NCBI GenBank assembly: GCA_943354835.1
Contig: CALRDH010000001.1
Span: forward strand, 115,005 to 179,004
Direction: 5' to 3'
Source of the DNA: a candidate division WWE3 bacterium
Lineage (GTDB): Bacteria; Patescibacteriota; WWE3; 2-01-FULL-39-13
Length of the DNA stretch: 64,000 nucleotides
The position numbers were made by a program. Below, one piece after another: positions 1 through 6,000 of this stretch (the stretch's first letter is position 1; every line of letters begins with the position of its first letter).

Positions 1-3000
1 AGCAAATGCGTCTTCCGCATACGTTTCTCCTACATCAGGATTAATAACTGTTGAAAATTTTAAAGTTAGTTTCTACGTTGAATCAACATCAAGCGAACCA
101 GAAATGGCTGGAGCAAATTTAAAAATCACTTATCCAGCAAATGTAAAAGTTGTTTCTGTTAACAACGGCGAATTTGATAGCTATTTAGAAAAAGTTGATA
201 ATCCTGCAACAAGAGAAATTTCCATCAATGCAGTAAATAACGCTGGAAATTTCAAATCAGGAAAAGTTAAAGTAGCATCAGTTGATTTCCAAGCTTTAGA
301 AAAAACAGGTCAAGTTCAATTAACAATAAGTTCGACAAGCCAAATAAACGGTGCTGGTGGAGAACAATTATTAACAGAAACTATAAATGGTGTTTATAAC
401 TTAAGCTTGCCAGAAACAACAGCTGCCGCAACGTCAGCAGATACTTCTGTTACATCAATCGCAGTAGGAAGTCCATCAGTTGCAACAACATCAGAAGCCG
501 TTGTACCAGCAACGGGAATCAGTGACAACAAAATTGTTTACTATCTTATTATTTCTATATCCATGATAGGACTTGGAGTCGCTTCTTTATATAGAAAGTC
601 AGACGCTTAATAAAAGGAGTCATAGCTTATGAACTCCGCTCAAGGATATAAAGGATTTATAACATTTCTACTGATAGTTGGTATATTGTTTACTGTTCTT
701 TTTGGCTTTAACTATATATCACAAACACAAAATACAGAAATCAAAGCTTCGGTGCCAAAAGTAATTCCACTAAATATTCAAGTTCAGAATATCACTGAAA
801 CTTCAGCTGAAATTACTTGGACAACAGAAGATACATCTCAAGGCATCGTAACATTTACTATGTCTGATATAAGGTGTGTTGATACAAATTCAACATGTAC
901 CGATGTCAAAGAATCCGAGCAAACCAAATCACATTCTATACGGCTCATAAATTTAAATTCAAATACTGAATACTTTTTTTACTTAAAAATGACAGATGGT
1001 AAATATTTCCCAGAAGATAAAGCCTTAAAGTTTGTAACAAATGAATTAGTTGAGCCTACATCTCAAATTAAACAATCAATTGTCGAAGGTTTCACTAACC
1101 CATCAGACAGCAACAGCGATTTCGAAGGTATATTAGTAGATGAACCTGAACAATCTACACAGCCAACGTTTGACTCGTTAATTAATAATGAAAGTCCTGT
1201 CCTTGGTAAAAACACGAGCATAATAGATCAAATGGTCATAAAGGAATTCAAAGATGCTGTCATTTTTAATGACACAAAGTATGATTTCAACAAAGATGGA
1301 CATGTTACGGTTGCCGATTATCCCCTTTTTATTGAATTTATAAATAACAGAGAAGATTAAAAGATCTTAAAGAAATATCAGTAATATTAAACCAGCAGAT
1401 ATAAATCCAAGTGCAACAACAAGATATATTGCTAGTTGGCTATTCCCAGTTACTGGCACTAATGGTTTAACTTCTGGTTGTGGCTTTGTATTATTTTCCA
1501 CAATTGGCTTTGGTGCTACACAATCGGCGTTAGCACTACATTCGCTTTGTCCTTCTCCTGCTACTCTAACGCATGCGAAATTCCTACAAACTAAATGTGT
1601 GGCCTCTGTTACGACGGGAGCGGGCGTAACTACTTTAGTTTCTTTTGTAACTGTAATTTCTGTTTTACATGAATCTGTATTATCGGACTCGAGTTTACTT
1701 GAAATAACCTGCAAGCTTGCAGTATAAACTCCAGGGTTAACATAAGTATGAATTGTCTGTGTATCAAGTGTTGTTACTTGCTCGCCATCTCCAAATACAA
1801 ATTTATATGAAAGTGAATCGCCTTCTCCTTTCCCTGTAAATTTAACATCAAGTGGCGCCACACCAGATTTCATATCAGAAAAGAGCGAAGTACAGGTCGG
1901 TTTTGTGGCTGCCTTTGCAATAGACACTAGCATTGCATATTCAGCTTCTTTGGGAATTATTTGTGGTTCTGATACAGAAACTCCAGCAACTTGTCCTTGC
2001 GGTTTTTGTACCTCAACTTTACTAACATATGCCAAGTTACTTAATCTATTTTCAAAATTCGACAAAAACGAAGAGCTATCAATCGAAGCAACACCAATGC
2101 CTCCACTAACGGATAATATGGTCAACATAAAAAAGGCGAGAAACGAATTTACTTTATTCATTGTTTTTTGTGACTGCACATTTCGAAAAAGTTCCGTCAG
2201 AACTTTCAACTACGGCTTTAATAAAATAATCACCACTACCTGGAAATTCAACATTTGACAGAATGCTATTAACTTTTGAAGACGTATCATTTTTGTTTAT
2301 AGAATTTATACATTTTGAGCCGTCTTCAAATTCACTTTCTTCATCTGACAAATTGCAAACATAATCTTTAACACTTTCATTTGTTTCAGAATTTAAAATG
2401 GAAAATTTTACTTTTTCAATGGAATCGATTAAATCGGTTTCATACGCAACGACTTCAAAAGAAAACTTAGCATCGTCTTTAGAATCTTTTTCGCCATCTG
2501 AAATATTTGTAAATGATTCACATACGGGAGTTACATTTGATGTATCAACAACTTCTTTCGCCTCTTTTGCCTTTGTCTCTGTACTGACGCCCATAACTAA
2601 AGGTTCTTTAGGCGTTTCTTTAACTTCCACACCTTTTTTTGAATCTAAATTTAAGGAATACAAAACAATAAAACTGCCAACAACTACAGTAACTATAAAT
2701 ATTAAAACCGGAATCATTATTGACGTCATCTTAGCGTTCATATTTTACTCAACTAACTTTCCAATAACTGACAATCTATATTTCGTTGTACCAGAAGGCG
2801 TACACGTAAAAAGCTCTACAGTTCCTTCATGTTTGCCCAAACTTTTTGGAAGCGGTGACTCTAAAGGATTCACGTTTTCTGGCCTTTGAACTTTACTCAA
2901 TGCTACAAGATATCGATACTCTTTACCATCATAATTTATGTAAAATTCATCACCATATTCAAGTTCATCAAGACTTGCAAATATCGCGCCATAATCACCT

Positions 3001-6000
3001 TCTATATATTTATTTTTTGTATTTTTAAATGTTGAATGCCCGAAAATAAAAGAATTGCATCCTTCATCTGGCAAACAACTTCCATTGTAGTGACCTAAAG
3101 CATCCTTCGGGTCAAGATTAGTCGAATTTGTTATAACCTTTGCATTTTCAATATCTAATTTTGGAATAGTCAAATAGAAATATTCGGGAATAGATTTTTT
3201 GGATGATTCTCTTTTTGCTCTCTCTATGTCTTCTTTCTTTTGTGAAATTCCATCAACCTCTACATAGTCATCGTTTTCTCTAAATCCACCAGAAAGTTCT
3301 GTAAATATAAATTTTTCCTGACCTTCGTTTGCAGAATCTAGATTTGCCGAATTGCTTGACGAAACAGGGCTAATAATTGGGGTCTTATCTTCACTGTCGG
3401 CCTGAATTTTAACAACCGGAAGTAAAACTTTTACAAACATTATAAGAATTCCAGTAGCCAAAAGTATTACTGCTAGGGGTGATTTTTTCGTCAAAAGGCC
3501 TATTTGCCTGGGCAGGTTTCTAGGATCTCGATATTCAATATGTTTTTCGTATTTATAGGGCTTAAACATTTATTTATAAGACCCTGTCCACTATCTCTAT
3601 AAATTCGATTCTAACATAAAATCAATCAACAAATTTAGGCGCTTTTCAGATGAAGATTTAGATGTCGCATCAAGCAAAAATATATTTTTATACATTACTT
3701 TTAACTTCTCTATGTCAACTTTTACGTTTGACATTTTCTTTTTAACAAAAGGATGCATAGAGTCCCATGCTTTATTCTTTTCGGCAACAAAAACTAGATT
3801 TTTAAGGCCAAAATGAACATTGCTTAAAACTATGTAAAAATCATCATCTGTTTTGCAAAAATTTAAAAGTAAATCAATTGCGCGACTTTTATTATTTTCA
3901 ATCAAAAACGCATCTGAAATATTGTAAACATCGTAATTTTTCTTTTCATCAAAAGAAACTTTTTTACCAAATTTTATTAGTGATTTATATATTTTTGTGG
4001 TTTTTATGAGTTTTACTGAATCAATAACAATTTCAACATCATTGTTTTCCGCAATAAATGACAAAAATTCGTCACTAAAATCAACATCTGAAACTGATTC
4101 GGGACGCAATATAATAAGTTTTTTGACCGAAAACATTCCTTGCGAATTAGATATATCAGCAATTTGTATTGGCGTATATTTTTTTGATTCAGCTTCGATT
4201 ATCTCTTGACCAGCGTATGTATTTTTTTTGGATTTTATAAAATTTAAGATGGCTACCGCATCAGCACCGCTTATGATAGTAAGCATTTTAGTCGGCAAAA
4301 AGAACGTTTCTTATTAGCGCATGTATATTATCGTAAGTTCTATCATTTGGTACCAAAACATATTGACCACCATATTTTTGATCTCTTTCTTCTTTATCTG
4401 GTGAAACTAGAGTTCCAGATCCCTTTAAATTAGGTTCTTCCCTTTCATTTGATAAAACGATTTGGGAAATACCACCTAATTCAAGATCAGAAAATTTATA
4501 AAATAATAATGCATCAGATAAAGATATATCAGTTGTCACGTTTTCTTTATAGCTAGTATATAAATCCTTTAGTTTGACTGGATTCAACAATGTTTCAGAC
4601 GAAAGGATTGTACTTTTTAAAGCATCAACTACTTTTTGTTGCCTTCTTGCACGTGCAAAGTCTCCGGCTTCTTCTGCATTCACAGAATGTCTTGATCTTG
4701 CATATTGTAAAGCTTTTTCGCCAGTTAATATTTGTTGACCTGCATCAAAATGAACATGTAAATATCTGTCGCTTTCGACAGGGGCTGCCTCCATTCCTTC
4801 TATTGGATAAAGATAGTCGTCAAAAGTTTTTTCTACATTTATTTTAAGTCCACCGACAGAATCAATAGTCTCCTTAAAAACATCAAAACCAACAACAACA
4901 TAGTAATGTATAGGAAGGCCGACAACCTCGCGGACAGCAGAAATCGTTGTATTAATTGCAACTTTATTTGCAGCATTTATATCTTGTGTTTTAGATTTTT
5001 CAGTTCTCAAAACAAGAGGAAACACAGCATTTATTTTTGAAGGAATTTGAGACACCCATAAGTCTCTTGGAACAGAAATCAAAACTGGTTTTTTTCCATT
5101 TTCATCTAAAGAGATAATCATAATAGTGTCTGTAAGTGCGGCGATGCCTGTACTTGCACTTCCTGTTCTACTGTCGATTCCTAAAACCAATATATTCGTT
5201 CTTCCATCATCGCTTTTTAATTTCGTTTCTGGAACAACTTGAGAAATTACGGATACAGGTTTAAAAAAACCAGCCATCTGATTTGGAATTACGGATTTAA
5301 ATCCAATTCCAATTAGTATAAAAACAGTCAATAAAAAGAAAATGAAATATTTAATCTTTGATTTAATTTTGCTCATATTGCATTTACGATATCAGCAAAA
5401 CCTGAAGGATCAAGACTTGCCGTTCCGACACCAAAACCCTTAACAAAACTGCAAGAAAGATAGTTTACAACGTTCATTTTGTCAACACTTCCACCGTAGA
5501 TAATATCTGTATTAGCATAATCATTATGAACAGCAATTAAATCTTCTACTGTTGCAGGATTTCCTGTTCCTATTGCAAAAAGTGGTTCAAACAAAAATAG
5601 TGCTTCTTGTGAATTTTTTATACTAGAAGACATGAAAGATTCGAACTCTTCTTTTTTGCTAAAACAAACTATTGGAACGATATTATATTTCATCGCCATT
5701 TCAATTTTTTTATTAATCGATTCAAAGTCTTCACCAATAGATCTTCTTTCTGAATGTCCGATAATCGTAAAATTTGCAACTTCAGAAATTTGAAATGCGC
5801 CAACTTCACCTGTATGAGATCCTTTTTCGAATTGTGAAACACTTTGTGAAGCGATAGAAATCACATCGGATAAACCCGCCTCAACTAATATCTTTTTTAA
5901 TTCATATAAATGAATAAATGATGGGGCAATTATAATTTTATTTTTAGACAATGATTCTTTTGAAACTTTTTTTGAGAAAACGTCAACCCAATTTCTTATT

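What the first reader, a model, noticed from the sequence alone, without database searches (positions are those of the whole stretch)
1..3569. Sortase locus with non-canonical VPxTG substrates: cohesin-like plus dockerin-like modules, a possible sortase-anchored cohesin-dockerin assembly
A clear sortase (TLxTC-type ELFTCTP...R) sits next to two proteins ending in VPATG / LVPVTG plus a hydrophobic helix. The 5'-partial first gene has a cohesin-like beta-sandwich pattern. The next gene is membrane-anchored with an FN3-like domain and a C-terminal DFNKDGHVTVADY loop of dockerin/EF-hand type. The third is a PKD-domain protein. Sortase-anchored cohesin scaffolds are established in Ruminococcus (ScaE), so a miniature version in a reduced-genome organism would be notable. 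The V-P-x-T-G motif itself also differs from LPxTG.
Basis: partly seen in the sequence, partly recalled or inferred. Interest (0 to 1): 0.6.

Follow-up and report, generated by a model that had tools for sequence, protein, structure and literature searches.

The report
Sortase-anchored cohesin with half-dockerin partner
In an ultra-small uncultured bacterium (candidate division WWE3), a wall-anchoring enzyme sits beside a small 'cohesin' protein it probably fastens to the cell wall and a membrane protein ending in half of the matching 'dockerin' plug. The three genes stay together across distant relatives, but binding between cohesin and plug has not been shown.

Summary
Window 1-3569 encodes a sortase with a His/Cys/Arg triad, and the only two ORFs in the 64 kb that end in VPxTG plus a hydrophobic helix.

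- **Gene 2** is a membrane-anchored FN3 protein. Its most conserved part is a C-terminal helix-loop-helix with one dockerin-type calcium loop (DFNKDGxVxxxD). Dockerin_1 is its best Pfam match, but always below threshold, because only one of the two dockerin repeats is present.
- **Synteny:** cohesin, dockerin-like protein and convergent sortase are syntenic in 13 of 14 WWE3 loci. The same order holds in four more distant lineages, where gene 2 shrinks to 86-105 aa (anchor plus dockerin loop).
- **The PKD substrate** is an optional lineage-specific insert.
- **VPxTG** is the family's dominant signal (41 of 51 orthologues), but the variant is already known from streptococcal pilins.

Cohesin-dockerin binding is inferred, not shown. 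Verdict: a new variant of a known kind, of moderate interest.

The parts
1..610 (+). Gene 1. A small sortase substrate with a single cohesin domain. The window edge removes its first 27 codons, and the full protein is 229 aa (P0001). The cohesin domain spans about nt 11-406.
503..517 (+). VPATG sorting motif of gene 1. It is followed by a transmembrane helix (nt 533-592) and an RKSDA tail.
   Evidence: T and G are invariant and V-P is dominant in the family.
629..1360 (+). Gene 2. A type-II membrane protein with an N-terminal anchor (nt 656-718), an FN3 domain, a disordered linker and a C-terminal dockerin-type repeat. It starts 18 nt after gene 1 and has an AAGGAG ribosome-binding site.
   Evidence: Pfam fn3 E 4e-7. 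Foldseek top hits are FN3 domains.
1220..1348 (+). C-terminal helix-loop-helix of gene 2. It is a single dockerin-type (F-hand) repeat with its calcium loop DFNKDGHVTVAD at nt 1283-1318. It is the best conserved part of the family.
   Evidence: Dockerin_1 is the best Pfam hit but sub-threshold. The PDB profile search puts dockerins 3ul4_B and 2vn5_B on top. The loop is kept in the minimal 86-105 aa homologues.
1367..2209 (-). Gene 3. A PKD-domain sortase substrate with VPVTG at nt 1445-1459 followed by a hydrophobic C-terminus. The likely true start is the ATG at 2161 or 2128. It is a lineage-specific insert.
   Evidence: PKD_4 E 1.1e-10. PKD VPxTG proteins occupy the same slot in L008, L011 and L012. 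The gene is absent in L004, L006, L009 and others.
2154..2741 (-). Gene 4. A 195-aa acidic protein with an N-terminal transmembrane helix and no family assignment. It lies between the sortase and the PKD substrate and belongs to the optional insert.
   Evidence: Unassigned proteins occupy the same position in L011 and L012.
2745..3569 (-). Sortase. N-terminal transmembrane helix at nt 3411-3476. Catalytic His178 (3036-3038), Cys256 (2802-2804) and Arg265 (2775-2777). It fits no curated class.
   Evidence: Pfam Sortase 60.7 bits. NCBIfam class C scores 50.8 and class E 43.8 bits against cut-offs of 160. The best PDB match is SrtE1 5cuw, E 2.8e-9. Conservation is shown.
4288..5376 (-). LCP (LytR-CpsA-Psr) glycopolymer transferase. 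It is a conserved neighbour, separated from the sortase by a holA-like gene (3597-4298). A functional link is possible but untested.
   Evidence: Pfam LytR_cpsA_psr E 1.8e-34. The synteny is conserved in L004, L006 and L024.

Best explanation
This is a vertically inherited cell-envelope module of candidate division WWE3 (CPR).

**Shown or strongly supported**
- A membrane-anchored sortase lies next to proteins that end in V-P-x-T-G, a hydrophobic helix and, in gene 1, a charged tail.
- The universal substrate is a 229-aa secreted protein made of one divergent cohesin domain on a Thr/Ser-rich stalk.
- In this lineage a PKD-domain protein is a second substrate.
- The gene after the cohesin, in the same operon, encodes a membrane protein anchored by its N-terminus. 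Its extracellular C-terminus is a single dockerin-type calcium-binding repeat. In this lineage it is held out on an FN3 domain and a roughly 50-residue flexible linker.

**Inferred**
- By analogy with LPxTG sortases, the enzyme cleaves between T and G and transfers the protein to the peptidoglycan precursor, so the cohesin ends up covalently on the wall.
- The dockerin-like end of the membrane protein, perhaps as a dimer that rebuilds a two-repeat dockerin, docks in a calcium-dependent way onto that cohesin on the same cell.
- This gives a minimal non-cellulosomal cohesin-dockerin pair that couples a membrane protein to a wall protein. A variant of the same idea is that it holds the cohesin substrate at the sortase.
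For: **Sortase and signals**
- Domain and triad.
- The only two xPxTG+TM ORFs in 64 kb flank it.
- VPxTG is kept in 41 of 51 orthologue clusters and in unrelated PKD substrates.

**Cohesin**
- The A1 profile finds 132 relatives, and 56 of the 79 scanned are Pfam Cohesin-positive.
- hhalign gives 99.95% probability, E 1e-37.

**Dockerin-type repeat**
- It is the best conserved segment of gene 2.
- AF2 predicts helix-loop-helix at pLDDT about 85.
- Dockerin_1 is the top family in 18 of 25 members and in 4 of 4 minimal homologues.
- PDB dockerins are the top profile hits.

**Functional coupling**
- Cohesin, gene 2 and convergent sortase occur together in 13 of 14 WWE3 loci.
- The same holds in four distant lineages at about 25% cohesin identity, where gene 2 is reduced to an anchor plus the dockerin loop.
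- In L009 and L014 gene 2 starts at the first base after the last sense codon of the cohesin ORF, so the start codon overlaps the stop codon.
- Gene 2 carries the only dockerin-type loop in the window apart from one weak pattern match.
Against: - No binding evidence of any kind.
- Only one repeat is present, whereas dockerins are defined by two, and all Pfam scores are below the gathering threshold. The DxNxDG loop is shared with EF-hands (6 of 25 members also hit EF-hand_1).
- L010 keeps the cohesin and sortase but has no gene 2.
- The whole region (rpsT, MurJ, holA-like, LCP, TIM, GAPDH) is syntenic, so adjacency partly reflects general conservation of gene order.
- Sortase specificity for VPxTG and attachment to peptidoglycan are inferred, not tested.
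- The PKD substrate lacks a positively charged tail.
Confidence: 0.45

Rival explanations
1. Gene 2 is a partner of the sortase rather than of the cohesin. It would be a small membrane factor that stabilises, positions or regulates the enzyme. The model is SafA of Actinobacteria, which binds the housekeeping sortase and shields its signal-peptide-like anchor from signal peptidase. On this reading the calcium loop is a structural or regulatory feature.
For: - SafA is a precedent: a conserved small transmembrane protein genetically linked to a housekeeping sortase (PMC9282373).
- Both gene 2 (MNSxEGYKGF...) and the sortase ((M/L)FKPYKYEK) have unusually conserved short cytoplasmic N-termini next to their transmembrane helices.
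- A conserved x-x-Ala motif follows the sortase transmembrane helix in the FN3-type lineages, resembling a signal-peptidase site.
- The minimal homologues are SafA-sized, at 86-105 aa.
Against: - Gene 2 is co-directional and nearly contiguous with the cohesin gene, and convergent with the sortase rather than downstream of it.
- There is no FPW motif.
- The x-x-Ala motif is absent in the minimal lineages.
- This reading does not explain why the conserved exoplasmic element is specifically dockerin-like and sits next to a cohesin.
Confidence: 0.2
2. The two proteins work independently. The wall-anchored cohesin binds something else, such as dockerin-bearing proteins encoded elsewhere in the genome or a host or partner-cell surface ligand, which would make it an adhesin. 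Gene 2 is an unrelated calcium-binding FN3 surface protein kept nearby by conserved gene order.
For: - L010 lacks gene 2.
- The whole neighbourhood is syntenic.
- Small anchored cohesins also occur without this context, for example as a tandem pair beside FemAB genes in L017.
- Dockerin and FN3 surface proteins were found essential in a cultured CPR bacterium, and the authors speculate that they target host-cell glycans (PMC10633639).
Against: - The anchor and the dockerin loop of gene 2 survive, still wedged between cohesin and sortase, when everything else in the protein is lost.
- No other clear dockerin-type loop exists in the 64 kb.
Confidence: 0.25
3. The cohesin-like protein is a pilin-like subunit that the sortase polymerises into a covalent surface fibre, as class C sortases do. 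Gene 2 or the PKD protein would be accessory subunits.
For: - VPxTG-type signals are typical of streptococcal pilus proteins.
- The best NCBIfam score is to class C.
- Lys112 is invariant in the family.
Against: - There is only one sortase per locus, with no housekeeping-plus-polymerase pair.
- The class C score is far below its cut-off, 50.8 against 160.
- No pilin-motif lysine is conserved: the residue after Tyr-Pro in the family's Y-P-x motif is variable.
- The fold is a cohesin jelly-roll, not CnaA or CnaB.
- Gene 2 has no sorting signal.
Confidence: 0.05
4. Gene 2 is a type IV pilin-like protein. Its N-terminus would be a prepilin-type signal cut after Gly9, and the FN3 and dockerin-like parts would be displayed on a pilus.
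For: - M1, N2, G9, F10 and F13 are invariant, with a short leader ending in K/R-G-F followed by a hydrophobic helix.
- PilN and PilO genes lie about 3 kb upstream.
Against: - Position +5 is Leu, not the Glu of type IV pilins.
- There is no Pfam N_methyl or NCBIfam prepilin hit.
- No canonical pilin is present in the window for comparison.
Confidence: 0.05

Closest known systems
ScaE of Ruminococcus flavefaciens (sortase-anchored, single-cohesin cell-surface scaffoldin)
   Different: - There are no cellulosomal enzymes or scaffoldins in the neighbourhood.
- The putative partner is a membrane protein with one dockerin-type repeat instead of a secreted protein with a two-repeat dockerin.
- The signal is VPxTG.
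- The module lies in the core genome of a CPR bacterium.
Non-cellulosomal cohesin-dockerin pairs (Clostridium perfringens glycoside-hydrolase cohesins; Archaeoglobus fulgidus cohesin)
   Different: Those systems use complete two-repeat dockerins on soluble enzymes. Here the dockerin-like element is half-sized and membrane-tethered, and the cohesin is sortase-anchored.
SafA, the small membrane protein linked to the actinobacterial housekeeping (class E) sortase
   Same: Both are small single-pass membrane proteins conserved next to the lineage's sortase (PMC9282373). The sortase's closest solved relative is the class E enzyme SrtE1.
   Different: - Gene 2 is in the substrate's operon and convergent with the sortase.
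- It has no FPW motif.
- Its conserved exoplasmic element is a calcium loop of dockerin type.
VPxTG-type sorting signals of streptococcal pilus proteins (RrgC VPDTG, PI-2 VPETG, GAS VPPTG)
   Same: The pentapeptide variant is the same, with Val at position 1 (PMC5640630, PMC3178606, PMC3019223).
   Different: Those are substrates of class B or C pilus sortases in Firmicutes. Here VPxTG is the general signal of a single unclassified sortase, and some sub-lineages change position 2 as well (D/S/N/Q-I-K/E-T-G, V-S-A-T-G).

Membership tests
Sortase (Pfam PF04203, peptidase C60) | Sortase domain above the curated score | tested here: met
   60.7 bits against a cut-off of 26.6, E 1.6e-16. TIGR01076 scores 43.1 against 39.35.
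Sortase (Pfam PF04203, peptidase C60) | Catalytic His, Cys (TLxTC-like) and Arg | tested here: met
   His178 (FGHST), Cys256 (LFTCTP) and Arg265 (KYRL) are invariant in 14 loci.
Sortase classes A-F (NCBIfam subfamily models) | Score above a class-specific cut-off | tested here: not met
   Class C 50.8, E 43.8, D 30.5 and F 12.7 bits against cut-offs of 160-166. The enzyme is unclassified, and its nearest solved relative is SrtE1.
LPXTG-type cell-wall sorting signal | Pentapeptide L-P-x-T-G, then a hydrophobic segment, then a positively charged tail | tested here: inconclusive
   The pentapeptide is VPATG or VPVTG (Val for Leu). A hydrophobic segment is present in both substrates. A charged tail (RK) is present in gene 1 but absent in the PKD protein. 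Neither the Pfam scan (Gram_pos_anchor is in Pfam-A) nor the NCBIfam scan returned an LPXTG-anchor family for either protein.
Cohesin (Pfam PF00963) | Match to the Cohesin HMM | tested here: not met
   No hit at E up to 1 for the protein itself. The A1 profile finds no PDB cohesin directly.
Cohesin (Pfam PF00963) | Homology to accepted cohesins through intermediate sequences | tested here: met
   Relatives found by the A1 profile at E 1e-20 to 1e-10 pass the Cohesin cut-off: P0101 55.8, P0107 43.7, P0093 35.1 bits. 56 of 79 relatives are positive. hhalign of A1 against A10 gives 99.95% probability, E 1e-37. The A6 profile hits 1g1k_A at 7.9e-9.
Cohesin (Pfam PF00963) | Nine-stranded jelly-roll beta-sandwich fold | tested here: met
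Cohesin (Pfam PF00963) | Binds a dockerin | not testable with these tools
   No complex prediction or experiment was available. Only conserved gene adjacency supports it.
Dockerin type I (Pfam PF00404) | Two tandem repeats of about 22 residues, each a calcium loop plus helix | tested here: not met
   Only one loop-plus-helix is present. The preceding helix has no calcium loop. The match covers half of the model (positions 2-23 or 32-56 of 57).
Dockerin type I (Pfam PF00404) | Score above the gathering threshold (22.9 bits) | tested here: not met
   13.5 bits for the whole protein, 17.2 for the C-terminal 52 aa, and 16.2-21.2 for the minimal homologues. Dockerin_1 is still the best-matching family in 18 of 25 members and 4 of 4 minimal homologues.
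Dockerin type I (Pfam PF00404) | Calcium loop D-x-[ND]-x-[DN]-G-x-[IV]-x-x-x-D followed by an amphipathic helix | tested here: met
   DFNKDGHVTVAD followed by YPLFIEFI. D219, F220, V226 and D230 are invariant and Y218, Y231, L233, I235 and F237 nearly so in 26 sequences. The loop reads DLNSDGVINMYDYYLL and DLNNDGVINSYDYYLL in the minimal homologues.
Cellulosome | Dockerin-bearing carbohydrate-active enzymes assembled on cohesin scaffoldins | tested here: not met
   No enzyme with a dockerin-type loop was found in the 64 kb. The neighbours are housekeeping genes.
SafA (sortase-associated factor) | [quoted passage not shown] | tested here: not met
   Gene 2 is convergent with the sortase and downstream of the cohesin gene. 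No FPW is present in the alignments. The features are taken from PMC9282373.
Type IV pilin / class III signal peptide | G-F-[TS]-L-[IL]-E with Glu at +5, and a match to the N-methylation motif models | tested here: not met
   K-G-F-I-T-F-L has Leu at +5. The Pfam and NCBIfam scans returned no N_methyl or prepilin-type family for gene 2.

The most novel reading that the evidence does not exclude
CPR bacteria of the WWE3 class carry, in their core genome, a minimal self-contained cohesin-dockerin system. A single-repeat 'half dockerin' on a membrane anchor would probably complete itself by dimerising. It would bind a peptidoglycan-linked cohesin installed by a dedicated VPxTG sortase. This would make cohesin-dockerin pairing a structural element of envelope architecture (a membrane-to-wall coupling) or a substrate-recruitment device for a sortase, rather than an enzyme-assembly device. 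It would also define a functional single-repeat dockerin.
Probability: 0.3. Interest if true: 0.7.

Novelty: new variant of a known kind. Interest (0 to 1): 0.5.

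Why it matters
- **CPR biology.** CPR bacteria are abundant, mostly uncultured and thought to live attached to other cells, yet their surface biology is largely unknown. This module is one of the few surface systems that sit in the conserved core of a whole CPR class. It consists of three small genes that could readily be expressed and tested.
- **Cohesin-dockerin function.** If the pair binds, cohesin-dockerin biology would extend from enzyme scaffolding to envelope organisation. 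It would also show that one dockerin repeat can suffice, which is of interest for protein engineering.
- **Annotation.** Independently of that, the work assigns a fold and family to an unannotated protein family: 51 clusters with no precomputed Pfam domain, where the few sources that name a member mostly call it hypothetical.
- **Sortase specificity.** It defines V-P-x-T-G as the dominant sorting signal next to an unclassified sortase lineage.

Tried and rejected
- **Direct Pfam and NCBIfam scans of gene 1** gave nothing, and the family profile alone did not reach PDB cohesins. The link needed intermediates and the predicted fold.
- **The 2026 preprint on a novel CPR pilus** (Pam pili, 10.64898/2026.03.03.709456) was checked as a possible explanation. 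It describes donor-strand-exchange pili without sortase, cohesin or dockerin and is unrelated.
- **Literature searches** for sortase, cohesin or dockerin in CPR found only general statements: sortase is present in more than half of CPR and nearly ubiquitous in Microgenomates (PMC6744442), and one dockerin protein is essential in a Saccharibacterium (PMC10633639).
- **Promoter and terminator scans** were no better than shuffled sequence.
- **Foldseek of the whole gene 2 model** returned only FN3 domains, so it could not assess the 45-residue C-terminal module.
- **The metagenome scan with the broad gene 2 alignment** failed for lack of a conserved stretch. A narrower alignment gave only 4 loci.
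- **The pilin-motif idea** was rejected, because no lysine is conserved after Tyr-Pro.
- **The prepilin-signal idea** for gene 2 was kept only as a low-probability rival.

Full report
**1. What is in the sequence**

The region holds five real genes.

- **Gene 1** (nt 2-610, +) runs off the 5' edge of the window.
- **Gene 2** (629-1360, +) follows 18 nt later, behind an AAGGAG ribosome-binding site.
- **Gene 3** (1367-2209), **gene 4** (2154-2741) and the **sortase** (2745-3569) lie on the minus strand and converge on gene 2.

Pfam confirms the domain assignments: Sortase (E 1.6e-16), fn3 in gene 2 (E 4e-7) and PKD in gene 3 (E 1e-10).

The sortase has the catalytic His178, Cys256 (LFTCTP) and Arg265 and an N-terminal membrane helix. 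It reaches no curated class threshold. Class C scores 50.8 and class E 43.8 bits against cut-offs of 160. Its closest solved relative is the class E enzyme SrtE1.

A six-frame scan of all 64 kb finds only two ORFs that end in xPxTG plus a hydrophobic helix. These are gene 1 (VPATG) and gene 3 (VPVTG), both beside the sortase.

**2. Source and full length of gene 1**

Exact-protein look-up of gene 2 recovered the source contigs: ENA k141_2552052 and NCBI GCA_943353295.1. They show that gene 1 is only 229 aa long. It comprises a signal peptide, a domain of about 130 residues, a Thr/Ser-rich linker, VPATG, a membrane helix and an RKSDA tail.

Named homologues and genome records place the organism in candidate division WWE3 (Katanobacteria, CPR).

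**3. Gene 1 is a divergent cohesin**

The protein itself hits nothing in Pfam or NCBIfam. Its 51 homologue clusters have no precomputed Pfam domain, and the few that a source names are mostly called hypothetical. Three independent lines nevertheless make it a cohesin.

- **Intermediate sequences.** A profile of the family searched against 1.84 billion representative proteins finds 132 relatives. Many are 200-240 aa long with the same signal-domain-linker-sorting-signal layout. Of 79 scanned, 56 hit Pfam Cohesin, and several exceed the gathering score.
- **Profile-profile comparison.** Comparing the WWE3 family with those Pfam-positive proteins gives 99.95% probability, E 1e-37, over the full length.

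**4. Gene 2 carries one dockerin-type repeat**

The AF2 model shows five parts:
- a membrane helix (residues 3-31);
- an FN3 domain (48-136), confirmed by Foldseek;
- a disordered stretch (145-196);
- a helix (197-212);
- a loop followed by a second helix (228-239), at pLDDT about 85.

The last 40 residues are the most conserved part of the family: EFKEAxIFNDxKYDFNKDGxVxxxDYPLFIxFIxNxED.

The loop D-F-N-K-D-G-x-V-x-x-x-D has the dockerin-style Asp at position 12. The helix after it has the dockerin hydrophobic pattern. These two comparisons rest on my own reading against the textbook consensus.

Scanning the isolated C-termini gives these results:
- Dockerin_1 is the best Pfam family in 18 of 25 members, with a best E of 1.6e-4.
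- EF-hand_1 is hit by only 6 of 25.
- A profile search of the PDB is headed by dockerins: 3ul4_B at E 0.009 and 2vn5_B.

All scores stay below the gathering threshold, however, and only one repeat is present. The defining two-repeat architecture is not met. 'Dockerin-like' is fair; 'dockerin' is not.

**5. Comparative genomics links the three genes**

HMM searches of every fetched locus show cohesin, gene 2 and convergent sortase in 13 of 14 WWE3 loci that have enough sequence. In L009 and L014 gene 2 starts at the first base after the last sense codon of the cohesin ORF, so the two genes overlap at the stop codon.

More telling are four more distant lineages, with cohesin identity of about 25% and a positive Pfam Cohesin hit. 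They keep the same order, but gene 2 is reduced to 86-105 residues. What remains is the same N-terminus (MN[SK]xEAx[KR]GF[IL]TF...), the membrane helix, a short linker and a dockerin-type loop. Examples are YDLNSDGVINMYDYYLL and DINGDGLINSLDF. In all four, Dockerin_1 is again the best Pfam match at 16-21 bits.

So the FN3 domain is a lineage-specific insertion. The conserved core of gene 2 is an anchor plus one dockerin-type repeat, always wedged between a sortase-signal cohesin and the sortase.

The counter-evidence is twofold. L010 has lost gene 2. The whole neighbourhood (rpsT, MurJ, holA-like, LCP, TIM, GAPDH) is also syntenic, so adjacency alone is weaker evidence than it looks.

**6. The PKD protein and gene 4 are optional**

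They occur only in some lineages (L001-L003, L008, L011, L012). When present, they form a unit of an unassigned protein (a membrane protein in this window) plus a PKD protein downstream of the sortase. The PKD proteins have one or two PKD domains and always carry VPxTG.

This gives a second, unrelated substrate family with the same motif. It is the best available evidence that VPxTG is what this sortase recognises.

**7. The motif**

- Within gene-1 orthologues VPxTG is found in 41 of 51 clusters.
- Thr and Gly are invariant in the 28-sequence alignment. Across the 51 clusters, one (P0021) has no TG at all.
- One sub-clade has D/S/N/Q-I-K/E-T-G and one distant lineage has V-S-A-T-G.
- Among the more distant small cohesins, V-P (18), L-P (6) and I-P (3) all occur.

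The motif is thus part of a continuum with LPxTG. Val at position 1 is already known from streptococcal pilus proteins: VPDTG in RrgC, VPETG and VPPTG. The motif is a useful lineage signature, not a new kind of signal.

**8. Mechanism**

Shown or strongly supported:
- a sortase with an intact active site;
- substrates with sorting-signal architecture;
- a cohesin domain on the universal substrate;
- a membrane protein with an exoplasmic dockerin-type calcium loop in the same operon.

Inferred from the established LPxTG sortase pathway:
- cleavage after Thr;
- transfer to the peptidoglycan precursor.

Inferred from anatomy and synteny only: the dockerin-like end binds the cohesin. This would either couple a membrane protein to a wall protein or hold the substrate at the sortase. 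A single repeat might need to dimerise to form a dockerin-like two-F-hand domain.

I put this at about 0.45. The rivals are:
- a SafA-like sortase partner (0.2; precedent PMC9282373). In its favour are the unusually conserved cytoplasmic N-termini of both gene 2 and the sortase;
- independent functions, with the cohesin binding something else (0.25);
- a sortase-built fibre (0.05);
- a pilin-like gene 2 (0.05).

**9. Comparison with what is known, and novelty**

The closest systems are:
- the sortase-anchored single-cohesin scaffoldin ScaE of Ruminococcus flavefaciens;
- the non-cellulosomal cohesin-dockerin pairs of C. perfringens and of archaea.

This module differs from them in four ways. 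It lacks any enzyme cargo. It has a half-sized, membrane-tethered dockerin-like partner. It uses VPxTG. It sits in the core genome of a CPR class.

I found no description of it in the searchable literature. I rate it a new variant of a known kind, with interest 0.5. The components are individually familiar and the key interaction is unproven. The conserved three-gene module is nonetheless a compact, directly testable handle on CPR envelope biology.

Noticed in passing
window 629-720 (gene 2 N-terminus); also L019:6684-6760, L024:6660-6740: The N-terminus MNSxEGYKGF(I/L)(T/S)F is conserved down to about 25% overall identity, with M1, N2, G9, F10 and F13 invariant. It resembles a prepilin (class III) signal ending in K/R-G followed by F, but has Leu instead of Glu at +5. 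PilN and PilO genes lie about 3 kb upstream in the source contig.
   Followed up: partly
window 3540-3569 and 3390-3410 (sortase N-terminus, minus strand); alignment of 14 loci: The sortase has a conserved cytoplasmic N-terminal motif, (M/L)FKPYKYEK. In the FN3-type lineages a conserved x-x-Ala follows just after the membrane helix (IQA, TYA, IHA...), resembling a signal-peptidase site like the one that SafA protects in Actinomyces SrtA.
   Followed up: partly
P0017, P0020, P0029, P0032, P0037 (L004:8001-8684), P0048, P0078; L028:2807-3505; P0021: A sub-clade of the cohesin orthologues replaces V-P-x-T-G with D/S/N/Q-I-K/E-T-G, losing the proline. One distant lineage has V-S-A-T-G, and one cluster has no TG at all. 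Whether the cognate sortases co-vary was not examined.
   Followed up: no
window 3597-5376 (-): A holA-like (DNA polymerase III delta) gene and an LCP (LytR-CpsA-Psr) transferase follow the sortase in all lineages examined. Together with the Thr/Ser-rich stalk of the cohesin, this recalls LCP-dependent glycosylation of a sortase substrate in Actinomyces (from my own knowledge). This was not tested.
   Followed up: no
L017:1169-2393: Two small cohesin proteins lie in tandem directly beside FemAB-family genes, which build peptidoglycan cross-bridges. The second cohesin carries VPETG plus a transmembrane helix. No sortase is present on the 7.5-kb contig.
   Followed up: no
window 6044-6889 (-): A 281-aa protein consisting only of an aldehyde:ferredoxin oxidoreductase N-terminal domain (AFOR_N) lies between the TIM and GAPDH genes. 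The arrangement is conserved in L001, L004, L006 and L024.
   Followed up: no
window 46928-55873 (+): Two very large ORFs sit in a stretch of higher G+C (0.38-0.41 against about 0.33 elsewhere). One is 1272 aa with a C-terminal M23 peptidase domain, and the other is 1360 aa with no Pfam family.
   Followed up: no
window 25577-25957 (+): A tmRNA gene (Rfam RF00023, 109.5 bits). It is the only Rfam match in the window.
   Followed up: no
window 2398-2889 (+) and 1905-2258 (+): ORFs of 163 and 117 aa lie antisense to gene 4, gene 3 and the sortase. They have no support and are probably spurious.
   Followed up: no
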